From positions 19,096,001 to 19,160,000 of the forward strand of contig NW_024704754.1 in the NCBI RefSeq assembly GCF_018977255.1: DNA of 64,000 nucleotides. Reading direction: 5' to 3'. Numbering within the stretch: the first letter of the stretch is position 1; the number at the start of each line of letters is the position of its first letter. The notes under the pieces are model-generated. The model did not search any database. It was given only the letters and a program-made list of their open reading frames with translations, and was not told where the DNA came from. Below are positions 1 to 59,779 of the stretch, in pieces. The DNA comes from Callorhinchus milii (taxonomy: Eukaryota). The position numbers and the translations under genes are program-made.

Positions 1-408
1 TGGCACATTGCGTCTCATCCAATCGTAGGCATTGCGGCGCTGTGCGGTGGGGGAGAGTTGGGGCAATGAGCTGTTGATGGGAGCCAGGATACCAGCAGGT
101 GGGGGCTGCATGGCTGTGAAATCAGCCGGGCTGAAGGCGAGCTGTCCCGGGCCAGAGGGACTGGCCCCATTACCTGTGCCAAACCCGTGCCAGTCATCTC
201 TCCCCGGCGCGTAAGGCGCTGCCCAGGCTGAGGCGGGCTGGACATGGTGAGAGTCGCTGATGCCCGTAACGTGGTGATGATATCCCGAGAAATCCGTGTA
301 CTGGGGGGGCGCGGGCACGAAGTTCTGGGGGGCGATGTTGAGGCTGGTGTGCCTGGAGGGATTGGGGTACATGGCGGCGTCTTTATCCAATAGATAGCTC
401 ACGTACAT
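1..408 (-). CDS. CDX1: Caudal-type homeobox protein, exon 1 (partial; continues off the left edge)
   Basis: Reverse-strand ATG at 408 reads [20 protein letters not shown]...[14 protein letters not shown]: the Cdx N-terminal motif plus the YxWM hexapeptide, with no stop down to base 1. The paralog call CDX1 rests on the head-to-head arrangement with PDGFRB. Absent from the ORF track because it has no stop in the window. Confidence 0.88.
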
Positions 409-559
409 CTTCCCAAAAGGGCGCCACAGGCATTGTGTAGCCGCCTGTCCCCCACCTGTGTGTGTGAGCGCCCTCCTCCCCTGACTCCCCACTCCCCCCC
501 CCCCCCACGCCCTGGGCGGGCACTCTCTCTCTCTCTCTCTCTAACCTCTCAGGAGAGGC

Positions 560-16916: not shown

Positions 16917-28200
<11,284 letters not shown>

Positions 28201-28947
28201 CATTCCCACCCTGATTTCCAGCTCACAAAATAACGGAGATAAAAAGGGAAAGTGGGATTCGGTGACTGGAAAGTCAGCCTGCAGGACCCCACAGCTTCCA
28301 CCTTCACAGGCTGAAATCTCTTATGGTTTTAGCCCTAAAACACTTGTCTTTAAATTGACAATTGTACAAAGTTTTTGGGGATCTAAATCTAAATTTAATG
28401 TAAAAGCTGGTTATTATATAACAAACCATGAAAGGCGCTTTGTTAATGCAAATATACAATACGCAAATACTGTAATAATATTATATTAAAAGATTAGGCC
28501 AGAAGAATCGCTTCCTCAGCTTTGAAGTCAGTGAGCTGTGGGTGGGGAAAGTTCAACTTTCAAGTTAATCAAACGTTTATTTCTATATATATATATTGAC
28601 TTATGTGCAAGTGAAAGGCTATTAGTTGATAAAAGATCTCCGATGTCCTACCTCTCTCTCTATATATATATATATATATCTTTATCCCATCTTTTTCTAT
28701 TGTATCAATGCTACTATGGTTATTGATCTATTGTGCCTCCTTAAGTGCCAGACATTCTGTCCCTCACACTGTCAAGTGTCATGTTTTAGGGGTTTACACA
28801 GCAGCATTTGGAACCGGCCAGGTGGCCCTTTGTTCCCACAATTAATCTGCCTTTAACACTACCAATAACACTACCAATGTATTTGGAATAGTTGTGGAGT
28901 CTTTTCGCTCTGCGTCATTTCTAAGCCTAATAGAGCTATTTACAGTA

Positions 28948-29197
28948 GAGCGAAACCTTGGGCAAGTTTCCTTACTCCACACGGCTGATAATAATCCCTC
29001 AAGAAAAAAACAAACAATAATAATTTGGTCACTTCAATCCACGACTGTTTGTGGGACGCTGCTGTGCGCAATTGGCTGCCTCGTTTCCCCCACAAATATA
29101 CAGTCAATTCACTTTACAATATATTCTGTGAAGCGCTTTGAGACGTCGAGAAGACGTGGAAAGCGCTATATCAAATGCAATGATTATTATTATTACA
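28948..29197 (+). mobile_element. 5'-truncated tRNA-SINE inside the PDGFRB 3'UTR
   Basis: GCGAAACCTTGGGCAAGTTTCCTTAC..GCGCTTTGAGACGTC..ATTATTATT matches the 7029 and 9865 copies. Confidence 0.8.
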
Positions 29198-30074
29198 ATA
29201 GAGGAGTGTAGATGAAGTATAAGGGAATGTTGTAATACATTCCCATTTCTAATGAGGTACTTTTCACAGTCAAAATTAATTATGTATCTTATTTAATCAC
29301 CTTGTACTTGGGGATATGTGAGCGCTGAGCTGGAGTGGGCTCAGATAACAAGGTGAAATGTGTCTTTAATCTAAGGAAATCCAGCCTTTCGAAGGGTTTC
29401 CTGATGGCTGAGTTGATAAACTCACTTTCCAGTGTGGAATTGAACCACCCAGACCAGGAAGGTCCTGGGTTTGATCCCGTTTTGTGCCAATTTCAGTTGG
29501 GACAGATGTAGGAGCTACGTTTGACCTGAAGTTCAGGGAAGAGGGGGAAAACACTCCAAGGTTCCTGCGGAGAATTCCTGCTGGGAAGTTTCCACACGTG
29601 GTTGTTGGGTGAGGACAGAAGCTGAAGCTCGAAGTTTGACTTTTGTGGACCTAAATCCGCATCATGAGATAAAACTGCGGAAATGGAAGATACACTGCAA
29701 CGTCAGCTTCGTGTTTTAAACACAAACTCATCCGGCAATACGTCCGCATTGGTCCAGTTGCTATTAAGAACTACATCCATCCCTCAACCTAACTTTGTGT
29801 GTGTGTGTGTGTGTGTGTGCAGCCCTGACACTCCCTGCCATTCAAAAGACACAGATAGAACGTGGACTAAAGCAGAATCATTGTAGCTTTCATTTTATTT
29901 GTTTTCCTCAGATTTTGTTTATTAACAATGGTACGGAACAATGTTTTTTCTTAAAAAAAAAGGCAAGAACATACAAGACATTCCATCGTGTATAATCGAT
30001 TTAAGTAATTGAGTTGTTCGGAGATGTCCATCTCTGTTCAGTGATGTATTGTTGGTTTATCTTGTTTTATATTA

Positions 30075-30080
30075 AATAAA
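30075..30080 (+). terminator. Probable PDGFRB polyadenylation signal AATAAA
   Basis: AATAAA at the end of an AT-rich ~1.9 kb 3'UTR-like stretch, followed by a T/GT-rich downstream element. Confidence 0.55.
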
Positions 30081-30319
30081 CCACGTTATTTTCTATCTGT
30101 TCATCTCCTGTGTTGTATCTTCACACGGTCCACAAAACACAGTCACTACACTTTACAGTATATCCTGTGTTTTAAAGACTTTGAGACGTATCAGCAACAT
30201 GATCAGCGCTGTGTCAAATGCAAAGGTTATTATCATTATTATTATTGTTATTATTATTATTGTTGTTTTATATGATATTTAAGTTTGACTTTCCCAGCAC
30301 GTGCTGTCAGGGTCACAGG

Positions 30320-30440
30320 GTCAGGGTGGGGGGCGGGGCACAGGCCGGATGTGGAAGTGACGTCAAGCCTGAAACCGCTCTATGCGGGCGCTGGGGGAGC
30401 GGAAGTCACGTGGGGGCGCCGGGCGGAAGTGGTGGCAGGG
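30320..30440 (+). promoter_or_regulatory. Housekeeping-type promoter of DELE1
   Basis: GC box GGGGCGGGG, three ETS/GABP-like GGAAGT motifs, CRE TGACGTCA (30358-30365) and E-box TCACGTG, directly before ATG 30441. Confidence 0.7.
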
Positions 30441-33400
30441 ATGTGGCGGCTGAAGGCGCTGGTGGTCAGAGGTGAGACCCGNNNNNNNNNNNNNNNNNNN
30501 NNNNNNNNNNNNNNNNNNNNNNNNNNNNNNNNNNNNNNNNNNNNNNNNNNNNNNNNNNNNNNNNNNNNNNNNNNNNNNNNNNNNNNNNNNNNNNNNNNNN
30601 NNNNNNNNNNNNNNNNNNNNNNNNNNNNNNNNNNNNNNNNNNNNNNNNNNNNNNNGGAGAGAGAGGAGAGGGGAGAGAGAGGGGGAGAGAGAGAGAGGAG
30701 AGGGGGGAGAGAGAGGGGGAGAGAGAGAGGGGGAGAGAGCGAGAGAGGAGGGGGGGANNNNNNNNNNNNNNNNNNNNNNNNNNNNNNNNNNNNNNNNNNN
30801 NNNNNNNNNNNNNNNNNNNNNNNNNNNNNNNNNNNNNNNNNNNNNNNNNNNNNNNNNNNNNNNNNNNNNNNNNNNNNNNNNNNNNNNNAGAGAGAGAGAG
30901 CGGTTGGGGGGGGAGGGAGAGAGGTGGTCGGAGAGGGGGGGAGAGAGCGGTTGGTGGGGGGGAGGGAGAGAGAGAGGTGGGGCAGACCAGTCACTGGGGG
31001 CAGGCTCCCCCTCTGTCACCCTCGGCTCCCGGTAACCCTGCAGCCAAAGCCCTCCCGGGGAGGGTGGTCCGAGCTGGACAAGCCGCGGGAAAGCCGGCCG
31101 GAACAGCTCGCCTGTGGTTTGGAGACTCGGACACAGTGGGTGGTTGGGCTTCCACACGTGTGTCGGACACTCGGCTGATCAAAACAATAAACACTTGCGT
31201 GTACGTTCCCCCCCACCCCCCACTCCCCACCCACCCACACCCGCCATTCTCAGTGCTGGACAATCTTTGTGCAGCGGTTTGAGATGTTGTCCAGGGTGAG
31301 TCTGAGCGTGTGAGGTTGTGCGGGAGAGGGAGAGGGAGAGGCTGCAATGCTTTGCAGACTTGTAAACATTCGTGCGACTAAAGGGAAGGAAAGTGACCAT
31401 GGCAAAAAGTTGTTGTTGCATTGCGTCAGGTCCCCACATGCGAGTGACGAGGAAAGCTGAACCTGATCTTGGCCACACGGTGGGGATGTCTCAATGTTGA
31501 CTCCAGGAGGAGCAGTAAACGGGTTGGTTTACGATAAACGCAGTAACTGATGATACAGTAATGACACTAATAATAACCTTGCATTTGGTACAGCGCCTTA
31601 TCGCGTCGCAAGAGCGTCTCTGTTTTCTGCCCCCACCCTTTGGAACTCCATTCCACAGTCCCTTCGCCTCGTCCCCTTCGAGTTACAACTCAAGACCCTC
31701 CTCTTCAACCGTGACTTTGGCCACCTTCCTACCCACACCTTCCCTGCCCCCCACCACCTACTGATCCCAACCCCAGCTCAGGTCCAAATCCCTGACTGTC
31801 CAGCGCCTTGGGACGTTCTCCCGACGTGAAAGGCACCGTGTAAATGTAAGTTGTTGTTGATGTCTGGGAAACGGAGCTTGTGAAATGCTAAGAACAGGCT
31901 TTCTAATCACTGACTATCACTTTTATTATTCAGCACTTCACCGCTGGCACATCACAGGCCCACCACCTCCGCTGCGGCTCCCACCCAGCCACCACGCTGA
32001 CGACGACTCGTTAAACCCCTCGTCTCTGATCTCAGGCCGCTTCACCCTCGACAGCAGGTTTGCTATTGAACCTTTAAACGCCTCAGTTTCATTGGGTTGT
32101 TTTGAAAATTGTCCTGAAGGAGAAATATTGCCAATTGTTGAGGTTTCACACAAACAGTGGATCCAGTGTTAAAAGCTCCCTTCCCTTTCCCTCTCTGGTG
32201 TTCTCAGTGTACCCCCTTCTCTGCGTGTACATCACTTGTGATTTTTCTGTTATCTGGTTAAATCTTTCAGCTCAGCAAAATCCCAGCATGGAGAGACCGG
32301 AGGCGGGAGACAAAAAACAAAGGAAGAGGGATTCCGGTTTTACTCCAGTCACTTGCCCCGGTATTCGGGATTGGATGCTGTGGGCTGGGTAAGGATCGGG
32401 CAGATCTCGGTCACTGTAACGCAATCATTGATCGTATTCCTCAACAGCTGGCAGAGTTGTTGTGGTTCATGTACAGCCCATTGAGGTGTGATCTGTAATA
32501 ATCTGCACATCCTGTGTTCCAGGGAGCGGCTGCTGTAGTCTTTGTACACCTAGCGAAGCATATCCATCAGCAGCTCTCTCACAAGCCCCGTCAGCGAGAG
32601 AGCCATCGCGGGTCAGTCCTCTGTGTCCGCAACATCATCGCTTCGGCCTTGGACCAGGATCGAATCGGTGAGTTTGGTTTGTTTTCTCCTCTGTGAGCTG
32701 GGAGGAACGTAGGCGGGAGGTATTTGGAAACAACGGAGCGGAAAAATAACTCCAGAAATCAGGAGGCAGTTTTTCACACAAAGCGTTGTGGAAATCTGGA
32801 CCTCTCCCTCCCCCAAAGGCTGTGGATGCTGGATTCATTCAAATAGTCAAGACCGAGGTGGATAGATTTCTGTTAAGTCAGAGTACCAAGGGATATGGGG
32901 CAAGGGCGGGTAATTGGAGTTGAGGTACAGATCAGCCATAACCAAATAGAATGACGGAACAGGCTCGAGAGGATGAATAGCCTCCTCCTGTTCCTCTGAA
33001 GCAGCTTTAGGTGATGATCGCGAGAGGTTTGGGTGAAGGACACCTATTTGATATCGTGCTCCCAGAACACCCACTACCATCCTCCCATTGCCGGCTGCTG
33101 TGCTGAGGGTTAAGTGATAGCCCAGGTGCTGTGTTTAATCTATTCCTTTTGTGTCACGTGTGTAGGCTGCTGTCGGAGTGTTCTGCCTCGTGTTGTGCTC
33201 GCTCACGCTGTCAGGGGCTCGACGGGTGGGAGATCGGACTCTGGGGGGGAATCGTCCCACTCTGAAGGCGAAGCTGCTTTGGGTACCAGCGCTGAGCAGC
33301 CACACCCCAGTCTGAACGTCCACTCAGGTCAGTGCCACAGAAACCCAGAGCTCGGTACAGATCCCACGGGAGTAATGGCAAAGATGGGAGCTTCCCTGTG

Positions 33401-36400
33401 TCCTCAGATTAGCTGCTCATCTCATGGCTGTATGTGGGACAAATGGGTGCCATGTTTCCCCACCAAACCAACCCACGCTGACCGGGACTAAATAGCTCTG
33501 AGAACCCCCACTCCCCCACCTCGGTGCAGCTCCAGCCAAACGGAGCAGCCAAGTTCAGCTCAGAATCCGGTCACTGTACTACTAAGAGTTGCTCTTAGCC
33601 TGTGACGTCCTGCAGCACAGAGCCAGAATCACTCTTTGTGCAGCGGGTAAAAGCAGTTGATTTGCCAGTACTTTCCGTGCGTCTCTCACTCGGAGTGCGC
33701 AACTCCCCCAGAATAGAACAAGCGTCATGTGCCGCTGTTTGTTTGTGCCTCGCAGGTGATGTCCTGTTTGTGGACGACGTAGAGAATTTCACATCTGGTG
33801 CAGAGGGAGAGGAAGAGGAGCGCGGAAATGTGACGGTAATGGTCTGGAACACCAGGGAAACCGCCGTCTTAAGTAACAGTCTAATAATAACCTGACGCTA
33901 GCTTCCCTGGAGGAAGCTGCCTTCCTCTCTCTCCCGGAGCTCCATGTGTTTAGTAAAATAGAATCTGACCAGGTCGCTTCCGAAGTGTGAGCTCGTCGGA
34001 GAATTTTTACATCAGAAATCTACACCATTGCTCAGAGAAAGGAAAGAGTGTGAGTTTTTGTCTCTGACTTAGTGACCTGGGTTTCAGCTGATCAATAGCA
34101 GTGAGTTTGCCAGCATTTGGTTTGCCCCTCCCACCCCCAAAAACACAGGGCGGAGCATCACTTGCACCCAGCACACAAAGGGTGCGTCACTATGCGTGTA
34201 CTTTGAGTTATTATGATATAATAATAATCCTGACACTACCCATTGCTGGAAGCCATCAGCTTTGTGGTTGATATTCCTGCCAGGAAGAGCAGGTGCTGGT
34301 AACAAAGGCTGCCTTTATCATCCTGACCTGCACTAAACCCAGCTTGTTTGTGTAGAAAGAGGAATCAAATCCAGACGAGGTTTTACAGCAAGCTGCCTCC
34401 CACATGGACACAGTTGTGGGCTCCAGTATTTCCTCCATCATCAACATTATTGGTGAGTGGTCTAATGTTTAAATAATAATAATAATCCTTGTATTTGATA
34501 TCGCTCCTTATCACATCATTGAGATGTCTCAAAGCACTTAACAGGATATACTGTAAAGTGTAGTGACTGTGTTTCGTGGGCAAAAACGATGATCGGGTTG
34601 AATGTGAATCGTGAATTCTCTTTATTCTGTGCTGCACTGAATTAAAACTCCTTTGTGTGTTTCGCACCGAGTTGCTGGTTACACTTGGACAGAATGTGGG
34701 AATGTTCCCTTTATTTTAACCTTCGCTAAAACCCTTCTCCTCTCACTAGGGATTCAAAATGCCAAAGCCAAGGATGACGAGGCTGCCTTCTCCTGTTTCA
34801 AGCTGGCTGCCAGTCAGGGCTCCGCAAAGGCGCAGTATAACGTGGGGGTGTGCTATGAGCTGGGAAAGGGCATCAGCAAAGACATGACAAAGGTAAAGAC
34901 ACAGCAAACAATCATCGCACTCTTGAATAGCTGAAGACTGCAGCCAGTGTTTTTGTTAAGATCTCTCGACTTTATCTCAGAGGAGCCGGGTTTCCTGGAG
35001 AGTTTGAAGAAGGGAGGGGTGTTAGTTAGTAAGCTACACGTATTGACAGCCCCCCCTCTCACCCACTCCCCAGGCCGCCTTGTATTACAGCTACGCGGCT
35101 GCTCAGGGGCACAGCAGGGCTCAGTACTGCTGGGGGCGGCACCTCTTACATGGAAAAACGGGAAGTGAGACGAGGGACACTCGGAGAGCTCTGGAGCAAT
35201 TGGAAAAGGCAGCAAAGTCCGGCCTTAAAGAGGTAAGTGAATGAAATGTGAATGTGAGGTTCAGTGACTCTGCGCTGCACGTCACGTTACTCCAGACATG
35301 AAATGGAGCATTCTGAGAAACTCTTTTCCTCTCGCTGCCCCAGGCCCAGGCCCACCTCGGGGTTGTTTACTCCGAAGGTCCTCACCGCGATCAGCGGAAA
35401 TCCATCATGTATCTCAGGATGGCAGCAGACAATGGGGTAAGGCAGAATAAACCCAGCAGATTGATCGTGCACTTGTATTGACTGTAAGGACTCAATGGTG
35501 AGAGTTGTCATTGTTTGACAGGATTCCTGCAGTCAGTACCACCTCGGGCTGTGTTACCAGCAGGGATGGGGAGTGCAGACAGATGTCCGTCAAGCGGCTG
35601 AGCTGTACCACAAAGCAGCAGCTTCTGGACATCGGGACGCCCAGTGTGCACTCGGAGCATTGTACCAACAAGGCCTAGGAGGTTACGCAACCACTACATT
35701 ATCTGAGATCACTATTACAATGATGGGAGAGAGCAGGGAAGGTGGTTAGAGTAGAGAGCTTCAGTGTGAGAGCGATCACCAGTACAAACACAATGGGGAG
35801 AGAGAGAGAGAGCATGGAATGGGAATGGCCTCAAACATTTAATATCAGTTGAATAAAATTTTTAATCCAACATGAAAGGCGTTTTTACCGATGGTGAGAG
35901 TAGCTAAAGGGTTATTTGGAGATAGTTTTATCTCTTGGGAAGCCATTGTGTGATGCTGAATGAAGCTTCCTGGATGTGAATGTGTGTGTCTCTCTCTCTC
36001 CCCAACAATCTGTCCGTTCTGACCCTCAGGCCTTGCCGTGGACTATCAGCGAGCCCTGGAGCTGTACCAGAGAGCAGCCCGGGCAGGCAGTGAAGAGGCA
36101 GCAGAAAATCTACAGCATCTGATGGAAGATCTGCACATCAACGGTGAGTAGGACAGGCTCAGCTCTGAGCGAGAGGATGGGAGGTGACTGAGCGCAGTTG
36201 AAGATGTAGGTTTTAGGAGGGGATTTAAAGACAGGTAGAGAAAAAAAGAGAAGGGGCAAGACACAGAGGCAGTTCCAGAGGTTAGGGGCTGAAGAGGACA
36301 TTCATCGAGTTTAGTTTGCCATTGTCTACCCGAACTCTTCAATTCTAACTCCCTGTCATTTCTGCGCGTCCCTTAATTTTTATTACTTTCGGAGTGTCTC

Positions 36401-40010: not shown

Positions 40011-43000
40011 TTAAACCAGCTGATGGGGATCCTCTTCGCTGTCCTCCTCTGTCCCCGATCCATCCCACTCACGGTCAAGCGATGCCTGAGCCTCGGCTTT
40101 CTGTGCCAGGAGGAGCTGGAAGAAGGTGCTCATCTCGTTCAGCAGCGACCCCGTGACCTCCGGCCCAGCACCAGCCTTGCCGAAAGTGGAGAAGGTGGTT
40201 TCCTGATTGTCGCCGGGGGGTTGGGAGGTGCTGGCAGAGCCGGGGGTCTCAGGGCTGAACAGGTTCTCCCGGTAATCGGCGGTGAGCGTGGAAGGCAGCG
40301 ACCAGCATAACTCCTCCAGTCTCAGCTGATCAGCAGCCTCGGCCCCACCTGAAACAGAGCGAGAAAGAGCGACACTGCCGATGAGTACAGGCGCCGCTGT
40401 GACAATATCCTGACCCACACACCCACAAAACACACAGTCAAAACCACTTTACAGTCAAGCACTTTGAGACGTCTCAACCACGTGATAAGGCACTACATCA
40501 AATATAGGTACTATTATCATTATAACAGTGCCTTGGGATGTCCGTGTCAGGTCAGGGTAACTAGGTGATATGGAGCAAATGGGGATAATTGGAGATGAGG
40601 TACATGATCTAATGGTGGAACAGGCTCGAGGGGCTGACTGAACGACCTACTCCTGTTCCTATGTTCCTCCCGGTGTGAAAGGCGTTGTATGGTGGTTGTT
40701 GTTGGGGCAATGATGACCCACCTGTGGGGACCGGCCAGCCATTCCTGGCCAGCAGGTCACTGAACCCTGCCTCCAGCAGCTGCTCCAGTGGGGTGTCATG
40801 GCCTGTCTCACAGTCACTGTCTCCAGCCTCGCTCTCCCCGTGACCACTGTCCTTCAGGCTCGTCCTGTCCACATCCTGAGCCACAGCCCGACTGCACCAG
40901 AGAAAGAATAAAATACACAGTCACTACACTATACAGTGTATTCTGTGAAGAGCTTTGAGACGTCTCAACAAGGTGATACGGCAGGATATCAAATGCAACG
41001 ATAGGCAATTGATGCAGCACCTGAAACATGCAAACATCTGACTCACAAGCCTTACTCACCCGCAGCTCTTTAAATATTTGTTTCCACGGAAATTCGGCGT
41101 CGGCTGGAACTGTCCCTGGTGCAGCAACGACAACAACTGGGAGATTTGCTGTAAACACAAAATGTGAGGACATTTCTGAGTCAGTCCGGGAAGGGAATCT
41201 GCAACTCCATCCCCAGAGCCTTTCTGCCTCCCTCCCAGAGCCCCTCATCAGAGTTTCCAACCCAAGCTGAGATTTCCATGCATCCCACATACACATGGAA
41301 ATTCCAGAGATAGATTGTTAAAAGGGGATGCGCTCTCTCTCTCGCTCCCTGGATTGTACCTGTATAATATCTCACAGAGTTCAGTGTTGCAGTAGAAAGG
41401 CATTCTATGTAGGGATTTACGGTCACTTCCCCCCTCCCTCTCCCCTTGGCTCGGGGTCAAACTCCGCCACCATCAAGCGCTCCGGGACCCTACCCCCCGT
41501 GAAGGGAGCTCCATAAATGCATGTAGTAGTTGTTGTTGTTGATAGAGGCAGATAGGAGCTGCTCACCTGGACATGGGGGGAGCCTGGGTTCAGCTCTAAG
41601 GTGCAGTCTGAGAAGCCGGCCATGGAGAGCCTGACCAGCTCCCTGAGCAGCTGCTGCCGGGGATCCCTCTCTCTCCGCAGGGTGGGGTACAGTCTCTCCG
41701 GCTCTGGCCGCTTCTCTTCCTCAGGCTCCGGAGGCTTCTCCTGGGGGGACGGAGGGCAGGGAGGAGCCGGGGGCTCGGGCCTGGGTTTCCCAGGGTGGAG
41801 TAGGGTGATGTCCGTCTTCTGGATGTGACGGTGAGGTCTCCGGGGATGGTTCTGGTAGCTGGACTCCGCCTGCCGGCAGTTGTATGCTCGGCTGTCCCGC
41901 TTCTCGGCTTTACATCTGCCCCTGAGGAAGACCACGAGTAGCAGGAGAAGCAGACACAAGCCGGATAGGAACAGGACACTGAGCAAAGACACACTGAGCT
42001 TCTGGCTGGCCAGCGCTGGTCCCATGGACCTTCCATCTTGCCGGACAAAGGTGACGGTGAGGGCAGCACTGGTGCAGAGAAAAGGCTTCCCTCCGTCCTG
42101 CACTGAGATGAGAATTGTCCATTCCTTGGCCAGGAGTTGGCTGCAGTTGGTAGCTCTGACCTGGATGAGCCCCAGGCTCTCATTCACCGTAAACACCCCC
42201 TCCTCGTTGCCCCCGGTGATGGAATAATTGAGCTGGGCATTTGTACCAGAGTCAGCGTCCTCTGCTGTCACCGTGGTGACCAGGTAAAGCTGCTCCTCGG
42301 GGCTGGTGAGCGCTGGTCTGGAGGATGCGCCGCTGAACTCCTCGGGCTCCTTGGTGATGATGGAGGAGCCAGACTCTCTCTCTGCAGCTACCTTGACTGA
42401 CGGTGAGCCAGACTGTCTGGGAAACGGTGCCCGGTGATTGGAGCCCCTTGTGACGGGTTCTGGTGATGGAGACACCATGGTGATGGGCACAGTGATGTGA
42501 GCTGTGCCGTGTCTCAGGGGCGGGTGGGTGATCACTGGAGCATTGTCATTCACGTCGATGATGTCGAGCCTGGCGTGGATCTCGCTCAGCAATGAGGGCT
42601 CCCCTCCATCCTTCGCCTGGACCACAAACTCCACCTGCCTGAACTGCTCATAGTCATACCGTATGAGGGTGCGAACGGCACCTGTGTTGGGGTCAATGGT
42701 GAGGAGAGAAGGTACTGGAATTCCCAGCACACGAGCTTCCCGGATAGAGTAAGTAACTTGGCCATTGTTGCCCAGGTCCAGGTCACGGGCTGTCACAGTG
42801 AGAACGGGCTCCGTGGGGAGACTGTTCTCCAACACCGAGGCCTGGTAACTGTCCTGGAGAAAGCTCGGGGGGTTATCATTCTCGTCTGTAACCTTGACTG
42901 TGAAGTGCCTCATGGAGGTGAGGGACGGAGACCCATTGTCCTCAGCCACCAGCGTCAGGTTGTACTCGGCCTGGCTCTCCCGGTCCAGGGTGGCATTAGT

Positions 43001-44888
43001 CACGACCATGTAATTGGTGTCATCGGTCTTGATGAGCCTGAAATGGCCATTGGCCTGGAGTGAGCACTTCAAGCTGCCTGGCTCCCCCGAGTCAGGGTCC
43101 GTCACTCTCACCAGGGCAATGAACGTGTTCCTCTCCACCATCTCAGACACCACAGCCGTGTTGTCCATCGGCGACACTGAGCTGACGTGGATCTCCGGAG
43201 CATTGTCATTGACGTCCAGAACTTCAAGAACAAATCAAGAACAAAGCGTTTGGTTAACGTTGAGCCTTTCGTGTTCATTGTCGCAATGTTTCTAGTATTT
43301 ATTTTACAGATTATATTGAGGTTAATTCTCAAATCATAATTGGCTGAAAATCCTCTGTTAATGCCTGAACTTATTCGACAACGTTTTCAGTATTCCCTCC
43401 TCAGTAAACTCCGATTCTCTCAGTCCAGCCGCCCACCAGTGTCTCACTCTGGTGACCTCATGGAGAGAGTGTAGGGATAGAGAGAGTGTAGGGATAGAGA
43501 GAGTGTAGGGATAGAGAGAGTGTAGGGATAGAGAGAGTGTAGGGATAGAGAGAGTGTTGGGATAGAGAGAGTGTTGGGATAGAGAGAGTGTTGGGATAGA
43601 GAGAGTGTAGAGATAGAGTGTTGGGATAGAGAGAGTGTTGGGATAGAGAGAGTGTTGGGATAGAGAGAGTGTAGAGATAGAGTGTTGGGATAGAGAGAGT
43701 GTTGGGATAGAGAGAGTGTAGGGATAGACGGTAACAGCACAGAGTGGGGTTGAGATCAGTAACAGCACAACGAGGGATATATCAAATGCGTCCATTATTA
43801 TTATTACTATTAATTATTATTATTATTTAAAAGCAGAGAGTGAGAGGTCGGTCACCTGTGACCTGAATGCTGCAGTGAACAGGGATGGAGTTTGGTCCCA
43901 GATCTCTGGCCTGAACCTGCAGTTGATGGACTCCGGTCTTCTCCCGGTCCAGGGCTCGGGTCAGGGACAAGCGGCCGCTCTGGGGGTCGATGGCAAAGAT
44001 GTCCGCGGTGCCGGGGTCCCGGGGTCCGGTCAGGGAGTAGCGCACCTCCCCGTTGTTGCCCTGGTCGGGGTCGGTGGCCGTGAGGTGCAGGAGGGTGGTC
44101 CCGGGCGCCGTGTCCTCTCTGATCTGCAGCTCCTCGGGGGTCCCCGCGAACCGGGGCTGATTGTCGTTGGAATCCAACACGTTGATGCGGACAGAGACGG
44201 TACCGGAGCGCCGGGGCTGCCCGTTATCCACCGCCACGAGCGTCAGTTCATGTACCGAGCGCTGCTCCCGGTCCAGCGCCGCCTTCACCAGCAAATGCGG
44301 GCGCCTCCCACCGTCCGGCCCGCGGGCCGCCTCGAGGGCGAAGTTCTGGCTCGGCGACAGGAGGTAGTGACTGAGGCCGTTCTCCCCCACGTCCGCATCC
44401 AGAGCCCCGGCCAGAGGCAGGCGGGTGCGCACTGAGGCGCTCTCATTGATCTCCATCTCCAGTCTGGAGTTGGGGAAGCGAGGCTCGTGGTCATTGATGT
44501 CCATCAGCTCCATCTCCACCTGCACCACAGCCCTGGGCTCCCCCCGGTGACTGCTCAGCAGGACCCCCATCCCCAGGCTGCAGGGCCCCCGGGAGCCACA
44601 CAGCGCCTCTCTGTCCAACCGCCCTGAGCTCTCCAGCGCCCCGTCTCCAGGTGACACCCGCACCGGCCACTCCGGTCCCGGCAGCAACAGCTCATAGCGT
44701 CCGGGACCCAACTCCAACTCCGGCTCCAGACTGAGATCATCAGCTAACCTCCCGATCAACGTGCCCTCGGGTACCTCCTCATACACCCGGTACCGGGCTC
44801 TCACCGTGGGCGGGTCCCTGCCGCTCCCACCCCAGCAAACTGGCCACCAAACCAGGGTCAGACACAGCCAGAAGCCCTGTATCTCCAT
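40011..44888 (-). CDS. PCDH12: Protocadherin-12 (VE-cadherin-2), ~1094 aa
   Basis: Exons complement(44888-43856, 43221-41567, 41148-41060, 40891-40722, 40348-40011). Signal peptide, six cadherin repeats (LDRE, DxNDN), [11 protein letters not shown], and the PCDH12-typical [17 protein letters not shown]|[30 protein letters not shown] and FSTFGK (WIRS). Confidence 0.93.
43462..43728. repeat. 17-bp minisatellite (GGGATAGAGAGAGTGT[T/A]), ~15 copies, in PCDH12 intron 1
   Basis: Directly visible tandem units; they produce the spurious repetitive ORFs at 43358-43795. Confidence 0.9.
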
Positions 44889-44892
44889 CCTC

Positions 44893-45015
44893 CCTCACCC
44901 CCCTGCCCCCTTGCCCCCCTGCCCCCTGCCCTCCTGCCCCCTGGCCCCCTCACCCCTGCCCCTGCCCCCCTGCCCCACTGCCCCACTGCCCCCTCACACC
45001 CTGCCCCCCTGCCCT
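44893..45015. repeat. (CCCCTG)n-like low-complexity tract immediately 5' of the PCDH12 ATG
   Basis: Imperfect CCCCTG/CCCCCTG repeats; G-rich on the sense (minus) strand. Confidence 0.8.
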
Positions 45016-51807: not shown

Positions 51808-52815
51808 TTACTTCCTGGATTTTATTTTGACCTTGGAAGTTTGTGGAAGCACAATTCCAGATTTGGGAGGGACTTTGATTTCATACATCCTCTCACTTCG
51901 CTTTAGATTGGGCTTTGGGTCCCGTTTGGTTGCCTTCTCGCTCCCAGAGTTGGCCAGTTTATCGTAGGACATCGTTCGGGGGCTGGGGCGAAGTCCGGGA
52001 CTCTTCCCGGCTTTCTTGGCCTTGGGTTTCCTGACATTGTTGGGGGGGAGTTCCTTGCCGGCCTTGGAGTCTTTCTGACCCGCTCGCTCCTTCTCATGGG
52101 TTTTTATTGCTGCCTGACCGGCTTTCTCACCTTTGGATTTTTCCAGGAAGTTTTTCCGGAAGATCTCGCACTTTGTCATCGGTCGCTCGGCCTCAGACTC
52201 CTCATCACTCGGTGTTGAGTCCTCGTCGTATTCATAGACGTCGTCGCTCAGTGGCAATTTCACCCCCATCCGGCTCCCGCCTTCGGTTTGATCATCTGTC
52301 GACTCAACGACCTCGTACTCGCAAGTGACATCCTCCTCTTCTGTCTCCACGCCCTTCCTCCTGGTGCTGCTCTGGGATTCTCCCACCTTCGTGCTCTCAT
52401 TCCCCCCTTCCAGAAGCAGCAGGTTGGCCGTGGTCTCCGTCAACATGTCCATCAGCGTTTCCATCTTCAGGGTCAAGATGTTGTTCTGCTCCTGAAGGAG
52501 CCGGTTCCTCTCTCTCATATTCTTCACCAGATCGCTCTGGCTGCTGTTGTCCATGTCTCGGCTGTGGGACACCCATCTCCCTTTCCGAAAAGTGAACCTC
52601 TGGCCATTGAATCGGAGCTCAGTTGGTTCGTGCTCCAGCCCCAGCTCAGCCAGTCGGTGGTTGTAGTCGAGGTAATAAAGCGAGGAGATGGGCGGGTTTT
52701 TGCGTGGGACACTCTTGCGGGGCTTAAATTTATTTGTACAAGGCAGAGGATGACTTTCAATGAAGAACTTGATTCTCTCCCTGATGTCCGCTGTGTAGGA
52801 TTCAAACTGATCCAT
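51808..52815 (-). CDS. CBY3: Chibby-family protein (CBY3-like), single coding exon, 335 aa
   Basis: FKPRKSVPRK..ISSLYYLDYNHRLAELGLEH..LRFNGQRFTFRKGRW..RERNRLLQEQNNILTLKMETLMDMLTETTA matches the Chibby domain and coiled coil. A splice acceptor lies 9 nt before the ATG and AATAAA (minus strand) is at 51711-51716. Proximity to LTC4S supports CBY3 over CBY1. Confidence 0.8.
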   Translation of the reverse strand: MDQFESYTADIRERIKFFIESHPLPCTNKFKPRKSVPRKNPPISSLYYLDYNHRLAELGLEHEPTELRFNGQRFTFRKGRWVSHSRDMDNSSQSDLVKNMRERNRLLQEQNNILTLKMETLMDMLTETTANLLLLEGGNESTKVGESQSSTRRKGVETEEEDVTCEYEVVESTDDQTEGGSRMGVKLPLSDDVYEYDEDSTPSDEESEAERPMTKCEIFRKNFLEKSKGEKAGQAAIKTHEKERAGQKDSKAGKELPPNNVRKPKAKKAGKSPGLRPSPRTMSYDKLANSGSEKATKRDPKPNLKRSERMYEIKVPPKSGIVLPQTSKVKIKSRK

Positions 52816-53671
52816 TCAACAAGACTAGATAAGCAACAAAGAGAAACCTTTACTCAGACACTTAGGAAGAGACAGAGGGAGACAGAGAAGGGGCCACAGG
52901 TTTGACACCTCTGCTCCCTCAGTGGCTCAGTTGGTAAAAATACAAACCAGATGATGATCTGAGCTACACAGAACACAAAGATCTCCATGTGCTGTGATAG
53001 CTGCAGTGGAGGATCTGGGCTGAGGAATGGACTTCCTTTAGCTGGTGGCACCTGGTGAAATCCTGCACGGCTGTGCGTGTCCGGTGTAAATCTAATCGGT
53101 CGTTCCCCACCTCTCACAGGACACCTCTGCTCCTGCCCGACCCACAGAGCAACGTCCAATGGGCTCAGGGCCCCTACCCTGCGTGCGGGACGCTATACAA
53201 AAGCAAGTTGTTGTTGTTTTCGGCCCATAGCCCCCCCCCACCGGGATCCACTGATTACAATCACATTGTTAGGTGCTAACGTTAATGCCTCCCATTCTTA
53301 CTCTCTCCCACCCCGCTTCTCCTGTTCCCTCCTGTTAAGTTCTCTGTCTTCCCCTCTTCTCCAGTTCACCTCCTATATCCTGCCCTTGCCTCCTTCAAGG
53401 CCGGTCTCGAGAACCTCCTCTTCGCTCGAGCCTTCGGTTGCCCTCCCACCCCTCCGCCTTCACCTCACCCCCCACGCTCGGGTCCTGACCCCTGACTGTC
53501 CAGCACCTTGGGACGTCCTACCCGATACATTTACATCTATAAATGTAATTCTGTTGTTGTTGTTGTTGCCCTTTCCCTCCCATTCCCCCTCCGAGCCACA
53601 CAGTGTGCACCACAGGATAGAGGGATAGAGCCGAGAACGTCCTGAGCCAACGTCGCCGCGACGATCGTTAC

Positions 53672-53790
53672 CTGGCGCTGCCTCCGGTCACTGTCAATCT
53701 TTGTTGAATGGAGTGGGGAGGTCATTGGAGGTGATTGGCTGCCGCTCGGTGGTGGTTGTTGTTGCCGTGGCGGTAGATCAAAAGTGTGTG
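53672..53790 (-). promoter_or_regulatory. Putative non-coding exon 1 and promoter of the CBY3-like gene
   Basis: CpG-rich patch with minus-strand donor CAG|GTAACG at 53672/53671, CCAAT boxes (~53724-53738) and an X-box-like half-site GTTGCCGTGGC near 53761. Confidence 0.4.
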
Positions 53791-54222
53791 TCAGAAAAAC
53801 AAACCGTCAAGTGTGAAGGTGTTGTGACTGTATTAGTTTGTGCCCGAGCGCGGCAGCCAATACTAGTGCGGTGTTGGTACCCGACAGCCTTTGTGACTCA
53901 ATGATGTCAAGAGAAATCATTTTACGTTCATTGTATTCATTCATAACGACGAGTTTCATTCACATTATTATTTAGCTGAAATACATATTTGTTTGTTTTA
54001 ACATTAGAAAGCTTATTGTAATGACAAATCCCAGGTGAGGGGTTGAGGATCACAGCAAAGAATAAAACCATCATTTGTACTTGTCCATTTTTCAGAAACC
54101 ATCACAACTGACTGTGCTGTGGAGATCCACTGATAACGGTTGCACTGTCAGGTCCTAAGGTGGACTGTGGTTTTGAATGGTGTCAGAGCACAGTGATGGA
54201 GAGGAGAGATGGCAGAGGATGT

Positions 54223-57200
54223 TCAGAGACCAACAAATCTCTTCACAGGTGCCACCAGGCTGAAGCCCAGGTAATATGAGGACAGGTAATCGAGCACTCC
54301 CAGTGTGGCCAGGCCAATCAGTGCCCACAGCACTTTAGCGGACAAATACAGTGGGGCCAACCTGCACACAGAAGGAGACAGCATCAAACAGTGTCTGTGT
54401 CAGCTGAGACCCCGACACGGCCACACAGAAACATATGGATAATGCTTGGGGGGGGGGAAGAAAGAGACTTGTTCATTTAATTGTCCAGAAACTCTAGACA
54501 TGATTCACGAGGCACTGGATGATAAGTCGGTTCTCAATGTACACAGTAAACCCCCCACCCCGATTGTGTGGATAGTTATAAGCTTCCCATTCCCCAAACG
54601 CACCCGCAGCTCAGTTAATAATAATAATCCTTGCATTTGATTTAACGCCTTATCACCAACGAGACGTCTCAAAATGCATCACAGTGTTGAGATGTCTCAA
54701 AGCGCTTCAAGAATCGACTAAAGTGGAGTGACTGTGTATATTATGTTTTTTTTAAACCAAACAGTTTGGAAAGTTCACCCCCACCAACCCATCCACCCTG
54801 AGCATGTGTGTTGGTGTTGGGCAAGGAGAGTGCCTGGTTGGGGGTGGGGAGTGGACATCTCGGTCAGATCCTCTGCCACCCTGTAACTAGCCTCACCGTC
54901 CTTTAGCAGACTCCGAGTAGCCTCTGAAGTACAGGTACCTGCTGTACAGATACAAGAGTCCAAAGAACGAGGTAATGCCTGCAGAGAGAGGAGACCGAGA
55001 CATCAGTACATACACGGCCCCATTAGTTAGCACATTAACATATTACTGTAAGCCTTTCCAGTTGGGTTCAGCCCAATGCCTGTATCATTCTATGTAAATT
55101 TTTAAGCTGCTGTTTTAGTGTTTTAATTGCCTTTCAGTCAATACATTGTATGTCCGTGTTAATAAAAATTCAGTGAGGCTGATTAATGTTCAGGGATGTT
55201 TGATCAGTTTCTGCATTGAGCGATTTTGTAAATATTTCCAAGAGGGAAAGAGGAAGAGGGAAAGCGGTTTCTCTCCAACGATCCTCCAGATCCATTGCTT
55301 GTTCATTTTTTGTGGCATCTTGCCATGTGCCATGGGAGAATCCCAACCTCATCAGTAATTACATCTTGAAATTTTTTTGAGTTGAGAACATTCCTCAAAC
55401 ATGGATCATCATAATAATAATCCTTGCATTTGATATAACGCCTTATCTTCTCTCTCCCTCTGCTCCGAACGCCTTCTCATCCGAGGGGACTTCAACTTTC
55501 ACTTTGCCCCCTCCTGCTCTACCTCTGCTGACTTTTCCTCCCTCTTCTCCTCCCTCAACCTCTCCCTCTACATGCACTCCGCAACACACGTCCGAGGTCA
55601 CCCCCTCGACCTGGTGATCACTCGGGGCCTCACCATCGGACCTCATCCTGACCGACAAAGCCATCTCGGACCATTACTTCCTCTCCCTTAACTGCTCAAC
55701 CCCTCTCCCCACCTCCACCCAACCCATCTCCATCTCCTACCACCCCTGGATAAAAATCTCCCACTCCAACTCCATTGCCTTGGAGTCATCCGAACTCCTC
55801 CCCCTCTGGGCTTCCTCCCGCAATGACCTATTCTCCTCGGTCACTCTCCTCCACAACTCTCTCTCCACCACTCTCAATGCCCTTGCTCCCCTCACTTCCC
55901 AAACTGCCTCCTACTCATGGAAGTTACCCTGGTACGTAAGCCACCTCCGCTCCCTCAAGGCATAGGTGCATGCCGCTGAACGTACCTGACTCAAATCAGA
56001 TGTGGCTGGACCTTTTTGGCACCGTTTCCACCCCCTTTAAAAACGTCCGTCATCACTCATCCTTAAAAACCCCTCCCTGATCTCAAATTACTACCCCATC
56101 TACAACCTCCCTTTTCTTTCCAAGATCCTGGAATGAGTCATTGCTTCCCAGTTTCGCTCCTCCCTGTCCCGCCACTCCCTTCGCATACCCTCCCAATCGG
56201 GTTTCCGTGCCGCACACAGCATAGAAACAGCGTTGATCAAAGGGACAAATTACATTTTGTCCATCAGCGACCAGGGTTCCCTCGGCCTCCTTGTCCTCTT
56301 TAACCTCTCTGCTGCCTTCAATACTGCAGTCCCACCGCCATGCCCCCTCCCTTGCCTCCCTCCTTCCCCCCCACCCAACCTCTACGCTCCCCAACGCCCA
56401 GTTTAGCTCTGAAACACCGATTGTCCAGCACCTAGGGACGTCCTCCTGACATGAAAGGCGCTGTACAAATGTAATTTTCTTATTGTTATCACATCTTTGA
56501 GACTTTTCAAAACGCTTCGCAGAATACACTGTAAATTGGATTGTCTGTATATTTTGTGGGCAAAACACGACAGGCAACAAACAGTCGTGGATTGAGTGAC
56601 CAAAGTATTTTTTTCACTGTATCGCGGCATGGCACACACTGAGCCAAGGAGCCGCACTGATGCTTACCTTGATGGAAGAAAATCCCTGCAACCCATAACA
56701 TGGCAAGGAAAATCGGGAAATACTCGGAACAGTTCACTCTGCAGAGGTAAAGAAGCTATTAAAAAAATACGGCGCACAATCTGTTGAAATTACTTTGGAA
56801 GGATTTTTTTCCCCCATCTTTATTCCCGTTGGTATTCCCATCGGTATTCCCGTGCATCGCCGCGGCCCAGCACTTACTGCGCCCTGAAGACTCTCTCAAA
56901 GTCAGGGTGGCCACTGGTCGCTGGTGGAGAAATTCCAAACTTCCTCCTAGAGTAAATCACCTGGAGTGAAAAGTAGGCTGTGGGATAACAGAGAGCGGGA
57001 TCACTCTGACATTGTATGACCAGGAGACATGGGAGTAAGAAGTTACTAACCCTCCCCCCAAAAAAAACCTTATTAGCCAGAGACAAATAGTTCATTTCCC
57101 TTCCTCATAACTTATCGCCCCAATCTGCTGTCATATGACGACTTCTGACCTATCCTACCTAGATCTCGATCTCTCGCTGATGTTTCTGTCACACCAAGCA

Positions 57201-59534: not shown

Positions 59535-59779
59535 CTCCAGTCCGGCACCAGCCACAGCCTCGGGGTCAGAGACACACAGAGACACAGAGGGTAATGGGGC
59601 TGTTCCCTAAAAGAAGGAAAGAAGGAAGGAAGGAAGGAGGGAGGGAGGGAGAGAGAGAGAGAGCGCAGAGGCGGCTCCACAGTGTCAACGCGTACAAACT
59701 ACACCCAGAACTCGTGTCGGGAGAGGCAGCGCCATCTGCAGTAACCCCCACCGCCCACCGCCCACAGCCCAACAGCCAC

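What the first reader, a model, noticed from the sequence alone, without database searches (positions are those of the whole stretch)
28200..30471. PDGFRB is not followed by CSF1R: the conserved tandem receptor pair is broken and DELE1 sits in its place
Seen: the PDGFRB stop (28200), its polyA signal (30075) and DELE1 exon 1 (30441) lie on gap-free sequence, and I found no second class III kinase exons in the remaining 34 kb. Known: PDGFRB-CSF1R, paralogous to PDGFRA-KIT, is a tight head-to-tail pair in mammals, birds and teleosts, beside CDX1 in the ParaHox paralogon. Inference: CSF1R was relocated or lost in this lineage. Loss would matter for macrophage and osteoclast biology in a probably cartilaginous fish.
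Basis: partly seen in the sequence, partly recalled or inferred. Interest (0 to 1): 0.72.

Follow-up and report, generated by a model that had tools for sequence, protein, structure and literature searches.

The report
Shark-lineage CSF1R moved and shortened
In this chimaera the macrophage growth-factor receptor gene CSF1R is not lost but sits 227 kb from its usual partner PDGFRB, facing the other way, and its protein lacks the two outer domains (one of which grips the ligand in mammals), a shortening also seen in shark and ray database entries, so cartilaginous fishes likely switch this receptor on in a different way.

Summary
Observation confirmed: PDGFRB ends at 28200 and DELE1 starts at 30441, with no CSF1R between them. 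Loss is refuted. An intact, spliced CSF1R lies 227 kb downstream on the same contig, opposite strand, one gene from FLT4, with 13 genes in between. One inversion of about 234 kb would restore the tandem (inferred).

The unexpected result is that this CSF1R has only Ig domains D3-D5. Transcript contigs from two studies splice the signal exon straight onto D3, and no D1 or D2 exon was found nearby or genome-wide. All 18 cartilaginous-fish entries examined (11 species) lack D1-D2; catshark and Mobula entries also lack D5. In mammals CSF1 and IL-34 bind D2 plus D3. IL-34 coding exons are present here; CSF1 was not detected. Accession spacing hints that the tandem is also broken in sharks and rays.

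Best guess (untested): IL-34 bridges two receptors through D3 alone, and the retained D4 contact activates the kinase. I found no description of the truncation in the searchable literature or in this scan's notes, and one eLife paper lists the gene as absent in this species.

The parts
1..540 (-). CDX1-type exon 1 (Caudal activation region), head to head with PDGFRB
   Evidence: Pfam PF04731 E 1e-36; the paralog name CDX1 comes from position and recall
17139..28200 (+). PDGFRB coding exons (five Ig domains, TM, split kinase), stop at 28198-28200
   Evidence: tblastn to P0015; tree; stop
28201..30080 (+). PDGFRB 3' UTR ending at AATAAA 30075-30080
   Evidence: sequence; contigs of run X5 (RNA by the tool's guess) cover 28068-29937 in pieces
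30081..30329 (.). Left breakpoint interval of the inferred inversion; holds a SINE-like 3' tail (30130-30238) and a TTA microsatellite. The right breakpoint and CSF1R itself lie outside the window (C13:19,351,033-19,361,661; see full report)
   Evidence: interval inferred from gene order; no contig bridges the TTA repeat
30330..30471 (+). GC box, CGGAAG motifs and first coding exon (30441-30471) of DELE1 (first-exon identity inferred)
34641..35746 (+). DELE1 Sel1-repeat exons
   Evidence: Pfam Sel1; best vertebrate solved-structure match human DELE1
40014..44894 (-). Protocadherin (PCDH12 by position and recall), second gene of the displaced block
   Evidence: Pfam Cadherin and Cadherin_2
51811..59606 (-). 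Chibby-family gene (51811-52815) and LTC4S first exon (59475-59534), inside the displaced block
   Evidence: Pfam Chibby; LTC4S weak: E 1.2, but 8 of 8 hits are LTC4S

Best explanation
CSF1R is intact and spliced in this chimaera but lies 227 kb from PDGFRB on the opposite strand, likely through one old inversion, and it encodes a receptor without Ig domains D1-D2 that likely still signals when IL-34 binds its D3 domain alone. SHOWN: position, orientation, orthology, open frame, signal-exon-to-D3 splice, absence of D1/D2, IL-34 coding exons in the genome, the D4 Arg-x4-Glu motif and the kinase motifs. SEEN IN DATABASE MODELS ONLY: the same D1-D2 absence in 10 further cartilaginous species, and D5 absence in catsharks and Mobula. 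INFERRED, history: a ~234 kb inversion with breaks between the PDGFRB polyA site and DELE1, and between the CSF1R promoter and ZNHIT2, plus a separate in-frame deletion of the D1 and D2 exons, both probably in the ancestor of cartilaginous fishes. INFERRED, mechanism (untested): a dimeric four-helix cytokine, most likely IL-34, docks on D3 of two receptors with weaker grip than in mammals; the D4-D4 contact completes the dimer and the kinase trans-phosphorylates in myeloid cells.
For: Position and orthology: 14 kinase-exon matches genome-wide, of which one at C13:19.352 Mb carries CSF1R-type motifs and is 100% identical to P0123, named CSF1R of C. milii. Trees place it with CSF1R. Truncation: joints 5310/5306 to 6826 (GT-AG on minus strand) in X5 and X6 (study P2) and X9 (study P3); 3 of 4 runs laid, X12 does not cover that part. 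Domain HMMs: best D1 11.0 bits and best D2 4.2 bits over 18 cartilaginous entries, against 33.6 and 67.9 for the paralog KIT. No D1/D2 relic in intron 1, upstream of CSF1R or in the PDGFRB-DELE1 gap, while PDGFRB's own D1/D2 exons beat 20 of 20 shuffles. A genome-wide D1-D2 query gave 11 weak matches, among them one at the KIT locus and none on C13. The ectodomain aligns from residue 208 of human CSF1R and 215 of KIT and folds as three Ig domains at pLDDT mostly 80-95. Mechanism: IL-34 has four coding exons with open frames over the matched parts. D3 is kept in all 11 species even where D5 is gone. The D4 motif is present in 9 of 9 cartilaginous sequences tested. Inversion: reversing the block puts CSF1R head-to-tail behind PDGFRB; CSF1R stays one gene from FLT4, as in the cdx1-pdgfrb-csf1r-flt4 paralogon of PMC2020491 (passages).
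Against: No binding or signalling data exist here. In mammals D2 supplies many ligand contacts (Arg142, Arg146, residues 169-173; PMC3500696, passages), so D3 alone may be too weak. D3 is the least conserved domain within cartilaginous fishes (45% identity against 58% for D4) and has a longer loop before its last strand. The D3-only precedent (FLT3 ligand) is recalled; the paper I read says only 'D1, D2 and/or D3' (PMC8034431). One inversion leaves FLT4 in the same direction as CSF1R, unlike the tail-to-tail KIT-KDR pair on C1, so at least one more flip occurred at some time. The human KIT ectodomain scores higher than human CSF1R against this ectodomain (122 against 100 bits), although both trees favour CSF1R. 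No contig bridges the TTA repeat at the left junction or the repeat upstream of CSF1R. The runs are RNA only by the tool's guess, although they show GT-AG joints. Shark gene order rests on accession spacing, an indirect proxy.
Confidence: 0.55

Rival explanations
1. The shortened receptor needs another partner: a different ligand (for example KIT ligand or an unrecognised CSF1-like cytokine) or a co-receptor supplies the surface that D2 gave.
For: D2 carries many mammalian contacts (PMC3500696). D3 is divergent and has an extended loop. KIT ligand exons are present. CSF1 and FLT3 ligand gave no match over the Pfam cut-off, which for fast-evolving cytokines does not show absence.
Against: IL-34, a known CSF1R ligand, is kept in this genome and annotated in bamboo shark.
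Confidence: 0.22
2. The receptor has become ligand-independent and gives a tonic signal through D4 and transmembrane contacts, controlled by expression only.
For: The minimal forms (D3-D4 only; Scyliorhinus, Mobula) keep the D4 motif and kinase. CSF1 orthologs are reported absent or incompletely recovered in cartilaginous fishes (PMC13587608, PMC7717901, passages).
Against: D3 is never lost among the 11 species. The juxtamembrane region is well conserved. IL-34 is retained.
Confidence: 0.13
3. On origin only: the inversion itself beheaded CSF1R, breaking between the D2 and D3 exons; the body then gained a new promoter and signal exon, and the head decayed behind PDGFRB.
For: Both changes appear to map to the same branch. 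The inferred right breakpoint lies within 1.3 kb of the CSF1R start codon.
Against: The signal exon (15 codons plus one base) resembles bony CSF1R leaders in length, and a phase-1 deletion explains the frame simply. No D1/D2 relic lies behind PDGFRB, though any relic would be very old. Intron 1 holds two GGAAnnGAAA motifs (0.14 expected), which suits a retained myeloid control intron but is weak evidence.
Confidence: 0.2
4. Artefact: the block is mis-oriented in the assembly, or a full five-domain CSF1R is hidden in unassembled sequence.
For: Short-read contigs break at repeats at both junctions. The assembly has 1762 contigs and my searches score only the best candidates.
Against: The two junction intervals share no alignable repeat (best E 0.28). 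An older-series RefSeq pair for this species is already 18 accessions apart, and 7 sharks show gaps of 23-35. PMC7717901 also saw PDGFRB without CSF1R beside it. Transcript contigs lack D1-D2, as do all 18 entries.
Confidence: 0.04
5. CSF1R is lost in this lineage.
For: Not adjacent to PDGFRB; PMC7717901 found none in ghost shark or whale shark databases.
Against: An intact, spliced ortholog is on the same contig. PMC6795676 (one passage) says it was identified in the elephant shark genome.
Confidence: 0.01

Closest known systems
CSF1R (M-CSF receptor, c-FMS) of bony vertebrates
   Same: Ortholog by both trees; D3-D5, TM, juxtamembrane, split kinase with HRDVAARN and DCVYTVQSDVWS; D4 Arg-x4-Glu motif; linked to PDGFRB, CDX1 and FLT4.
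   Different: 764 aa instead of about 960-980; no D1, no D2 (and no D5 in Scyliorhinus and Mobula entries); extended loop in D3; not in tandem with PDGFRB.
PDGFRB-CSF1R tandem of the ParaHox D paralogon (PMC4898815, PMC2020491; passages)
   Same: CDX1 and PDGFRB are head to head; CSF1R and FLT4 are on the same contig within 0.25 Mb of PDGFRB.
   Different: 13 genes (DELE1 to a TRIM gene) separate PDGFRB from CSF1R, which is inverted. The paralogous PDGFRA-KIT-KDR order on C1 is conventional.
FLT3 (class III receptor; ligand binding through D3 only is recalled, not read)
   Same: Would be the precedent for a four-helix cytokine engaging D3 alone.
   Different: FLT3 keeps five Ig domains and shows no D4/D5 receptor-receptor contact (PMC8034431, passages); my D4 motif search found none in a caecilian FLT3, whereas the shark CSF1R keeps it.

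Membership tests
CSF1R orthologs | Intracellular part groups with bony CSF1R, apart from KIT and FLT3 | tested here: met
   8 cartilaginous rows sister to 9 bony CSF1R rows, 95/95 (30 rows, no PDGFRA row)
CSF1R orthologs | Ectodomain groups with bony CSF1R | tested here: met
   92/93, just under the tool's star threshold (24 rows, only 3 KIT rows)
CSF1R orthologs | Linkage to CDX1, PDGFRB and FLT4 | tested here: met
   same contig within 0.27 Mb
Class III receptor tyrosine kinase architecture | Five extracellular Ig domains (PMC8034431, PMC7709199) | tested here: not met
   three domains, D3-D5
Class III receptor tyrosine kinase architecture | Single TM, juxtamembrane segment, split kinase with catalytic motifs | tested here: met
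Class III receptor tyrosine kinase architecture | D4 motif for receptor-receptor contact (Arg-x4-Glu; its role is recalled) | tested here: met
   9 of 9 cartilaginous sequences
CSF1/IL-34 receptor (function) | Ligand site formed by D2 plus D3 | tested here: not met
   D2 absent
CSF1/IL-34 receptor (function) | Binds IL-34 or CSF1 and drives macrophage development | not testable with these tools
   needs binding and cell assays
PDGFRB-CSF1R tandem pair | Adjacent, head to tail, no gene between | tested here: not met
   227 kb, 13 genes, opposite strands

The most novel reading that the evidence does not exclude
One ancient inversion in the ancestor of all cartilaginous fishes both broke the PDGFRB-CSF1R pair and cut off the ligand-binding head of CSF1R, leaving a two- or three-domain receptor that no longer uses the CSF1/IL-34 site (new ligand or none), so that sharks, rays and chimaeras build macrophages and bone-resorbing cells under a different control from all other jawed vertebrates.
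Probability: 0.15. Interest if true: 0.88.

Novelty: new variant of a known kind. Interest (0 to 1): 0.7.

Why it matters
The broken tandem alone is an ordinary rearrangement, although of a very old gene pair. The shortened receptor is the surprise. Class III receptors are defined by five Ig domains, and CSF1R binds both ligands through D2 plus D3, yet a whole vertebrate class appears to carry a CSF1R without D2. This gives a natural experiment on how few domains a class III receptor needs (D3-D4 only in catsharks and Mobula). It makes the open question of what drives macrophage development in cartilaginous fishes, where CSF1 is reported missing, directly testable with two recombinant proteins. 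It also corrects a published statement that CSF1R and IL34 are absent from this species (PMC7717901). A link to the lack of bone remodelling is speculation.

Tried and rejected
Loss of CSF1R: rejected.

Repeat-mediated inversion or misjoin between the two SINE-like tails: the tails do not align (best E 0.28) and such tails occur every 3.1 kb (148 in 454 kb), so their presence is chance.

KIT-derived gene or chimeric ectodomain: not supported by either tree.

D1/D2 relics: none above shuffles.

Single-sequence fold of the ectodomain failed (pLDDT 37.7); the alignment-based model worked for the ectodomain but not for much of the kinase. The fold search was dominated by kinase hits, with KIT and CSF1R ectodomains at ranks 3, 10 and 22.

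Complex prediction of CSF1R D3-D4 with IL-34 was not available: no verdict. The only shark IL-34 sequence I held was an isoform lacking one exon.

Ectodomain-only homolog search returned only 3 proteins among 2733 candidates, so the species survey is not exhaustive; whale shark and skates were not examined.

No RNA holder listed: no run was on record as RNA. Logan contigs did not bridge the junction repeats.

CSF1 and FLT3-ligand Pfam searches found nothing over cut-off; not taken as proof of absence.

Four papers looked up by recalled ids were not held. Scan notes held nothing on CSF1R.
Full report
OBSERVATION. The window is G000:C13:19,096,001-19,160,000. Its PDGFRB exons (17139-28200, +) match P0015, a record named PDGFRB of Callorhinchus milii. 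The stop ends at 28200, AATAAA is at 30075, an ATG exon starts at 30441 and no N lies between. Downstream Sel1 exons match human DELE1 best among vertebrate solved structures. Thirteen class III kinase motifs, scanned in six frames of the window, hit only PDGFRB.

CSF1R IS PRESENT. The PDGFRB activation-loop exon found 14 matches in the genome among 97 candidates. By their motifs (names assigned from recall) these are PDGFRB, PDGFRA, KIT, KDR, FLT3, FLT1, a fourth VEGFR, RET, four FGFRs, and two more on C13: FLT4 at 19.313 Mb and a CSF1R-type exon at 19.352 Mb, both on the minus strand. The latter is identical to P0123, named CSF1R of C. milii. P0123 maps exon by exon to 19,351,033-19,360,371, 226,833 bases past the PDGFRB stop. 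In a 30-row tree of mostly intracellular sequence, 8 cartilaginous rows are sister to 9 bony CSF1R rows (95/95). A 24-row tree of D3-D5 agrees (92/93). Against this, human KIT scores higher than human CSF1R on the ectodomain (122 against 100 bits), and two of the shark clusters carry 'Kit-like' names.

PARTS OUTSIDE THE WINDOW (C13 coordinates). FLT4 exons found at 19,310,385-19,328,372, minus strand. CSF1R at 19,351,033-19,360,371, minus strand: 46-nt signal exon, D3, D4, D5, TM, split kinase. CSF1R promoter and right breakpoint interval at 19,360,372-19,361,661, 1.3 kb, up to the end of a zf-HIT gene (ZNHIT2-like by recall), then HDAC3.

GENE ORDER. I read 454 kb, picked exons by codon bias and scanned 41 frames against Pfam, 35 with a hit; HDAC3, SQSTM1 and LTC4S were checked against solved structures. 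Order: sulfatase (ARSI), CAMK2A, CDX1(-), PDGFRB(+) | DELE1(+), PCDH12(-), Chibby-like(-), LTC4S(-), MAML1(-), CANX(-), MGAT4B(-), SQSTM1(+), MRNIP(-), TBC1D9B(-), RNF130-like(-), FLT4(-), TRIM(-), CSF1R(-) | zf-HIT gene(-), HDAC3(-), MED7, ITK, CYFIP2, NIPAL4, HMMR, MAT2B. Paralog-level names rest on domain hits plus recalled human gene order; MRNIP had no Pfam hit. Reversing the block between the bars (about 234 kb) puts CSF1R directly behind PDGFRB in the same direction and brings DELE1 near HDAC3, which are near neighbours in human (recalled). CSF1R stays one gene from FLT4, matching the cdx1-pdgfrb-csf1r-flt4 paralogon (PMC2020491, passages). One inversion is the simplest account, but it leaves FLT4 co-directional with CSF1R, unlike KIT-KDR, so the full history has at least one more flip.

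ASSEMBLY ERROR? Contigs of run X1 cover 30 of 30 bins of 27000-30481 but break at repeats, including the TTA run near 30222-30276, so the join is not formally bridged. The two junction intervals share no alignable repeat, and SINE-like tails occur every 3.1 kb. A contig of X5 runs from the CSF1R signal exon into the tail of the repeat that the assembly places upstream of it (L057:6826-7244). RefSeq numbers give an indirect check, assuming they run in chromosome order: the older-series pair for this species is 18 apart for 13 intervening genes; Heptranchias 30, Heterodontus 27, Scyliorhinus torazame 23, S. canicula 26, Chiloscyllium plagiosum 23, C. punctatum 35, Hemiscyllium 23, Mobula birostris 424, M. 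hypostoma 432. None of 10 testable species has adjacent numbers; Pristiophorus had no such accession. A teleost control has adjacent locus tags (Phoxinus 013286 and 013287). This suggests, without proving, that the break is shared by cartilaginous fishes.

THE RECEPTOR IS SHORT. P0123 has 764 residues. In the alignment with four bony CSF1Rs and KIT, six cartilaginous entries have nothing opposite D1-D2. HMMs for each domain, built from 24 bony CSF1Rs, were run on 18 cartilaginous entries from 11 species: best D1 score 11.0 bits (a cross-hit on D3), best D2 4.2; the paralog KIT scores 33.6 and 67.9. Three of the 18 are partial or internally incomplete models (P0227, P0121, P0210). D5 is also missing from the Scyliorhinus (3) and Mobula (2) entries. 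In this genome the 46-nt signal exon is followed by a 1515-nt intron and the D3 exon. Contigs of X5, X6 (study P2) and X9 (study P3) join them directly, with two acceptors 3 nt apart; X5 and X6 join the later exons through to the juxtamembrane exon; X12 lacks the 5' part. These runs are RNA by the tool's guess. No D1 or D2 signal lies in intron 1, upstream of CSF1R or behind PDGFRB, whereas PDGFRB's own D1 and D2 exons beat all 20 shuffles. A turtle D1-D2 query over the genome gave 11 weak matches, one at the KIT locus and none on C13. The ectodomain aligns from residue 208 of human CSF1R and is modelled as three Ig domains.

MECHANISM. In mammals both ligands bind D2 and D3 (PMC3500696, PMC7709199, PMC13587608; passages), and D4/D5 contacts complete activation (PMC8034431; passages). 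The canonical site therefore cannot form here. What is kept points to continued ligand-driven signalling: the kinase motifs, the D4 Arg-x4-Glu motif in 9 of 9 sequences, D3 in all 11 species, and IL-34 with four matched coding exons on C14, also annotated in bamboo shark. CSF1 gave no match over cut-off, in line with reports of its absence (PMC7717901, PMC13587608). I commit to IL-34 binding through D3 alone at 0.55; another ligand or co-receptor 0.22; ligand-independent signalling 0.13. None of this was tested. The structural findings (present, displaced, truncated in this species) I hold at about 0.95, and class-wide truncation at about 0.85.

WHAT IS KNOWN. That this species has a CSF1R is known (PMC6795676, one passage; RefSeq models). 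PMC7717901 (passages) noted PDGFRB and CDX1 without CSF1R in this species and concluded that CSF1R and IL34 were lost, which this work contradicts. PMC4898815 (passages) describes the tandem as general. I found no mention of the D1-D2 loss or of the inversion in searches (4, 0, 2, 2, 5, 4 and 59 papers; most were seen only as listings; only 40 were listed and I read passages of 3, PMC4929537, PMC13587608 and PMC13113109, the last irrelevant). Searches were for the structural background. The library lacks most subscription journals, and I saw no supplements; the elephant shark genome paper's supplement or a comparative-immunology paper may already mention it. The scan's own notes hold nothing on CSF1R.

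VERDICT. Observation confirmed; interpretation half right. The synteny break alone would score about 0.35. The shortened receptor, shown by DNA and transcript contigs here and by database models in ten more species, raises it to 0.7: a new variant of a known receptor with a clear, cheap test.

Noticed in passing
L057:5729-5752 (C13:19,359,229-19,359,252), CSF1R intron 1: Two GGAAnnGAAA motifs 12 nt apart plus a GCAGAAGT site (0.14 GGAAnnGAAA expected in 1.9 kb). They resemble PU.1/IRF composite sites and sit where the amniote FIRE enhancer lies (recalled). Weak evidence.
   Followed up: partly
P0245, P0237, P0210 (Scyliorhinus); P0201, P0243 (Mobula): These entries also lack D5, leaving D3-D4 only. 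Catsharks and Mobula are not sister groups, so this would be two further independent losses if the models are right.
   Followed up: partly
P0238, P0244, P0245, P0279, P0281: Several shark CSF1R models carry a similar in-frame 25-46 residue extension before the signal peptide: possibly conserved promoter or 5' UTR sequence, or an upstream start.
   Followed up: no
L057:5306-5310: Tandem CAG-CAG acceptor at the D3 exon gives 764- and 763-residue isoforms; both joints are seen in contigs.
   Followed up: yes
P0123 C-terminus (C13:19,351,033-19,351,134): The chimaera model ends without the C-terminal tyrosine motifs seen in Heptranchias and turtle CSF1R. This may be a real loss of docking sites or a model error; not checked against RNA.
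   Followed up: no
G000:C14:16,790,732-16,793,847 (-): IL34 coding exons are present although PMC7717901 reports IL34 absent from this species.
   Followed up: partly
G000:C15:15,526,603 (+): A fourth VEGFR-type kinase exon, probably KDRL.
   Followed up: no
window:27296-27367: Pro-Asp/Glu-Pro-Ser repeat in the PDGFRB C-terminal tail, with a 12-nt length variant in run X1.
   Followed up: no
C13:19,070,400-19,083,000 (L051-L052): No SLC6A7-like exon stood out between CAMK2A and CDX1, where human has one (recalled); only the codon-bias listing was inspected.
   Followed up: no
P0002: A 1998-residue pipefish model named csf1rb holds two class III kinase domains, probably a fused PDGFRB-CSF1R gene model reflecting the intact teleost tandem.
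   Followed up: partly
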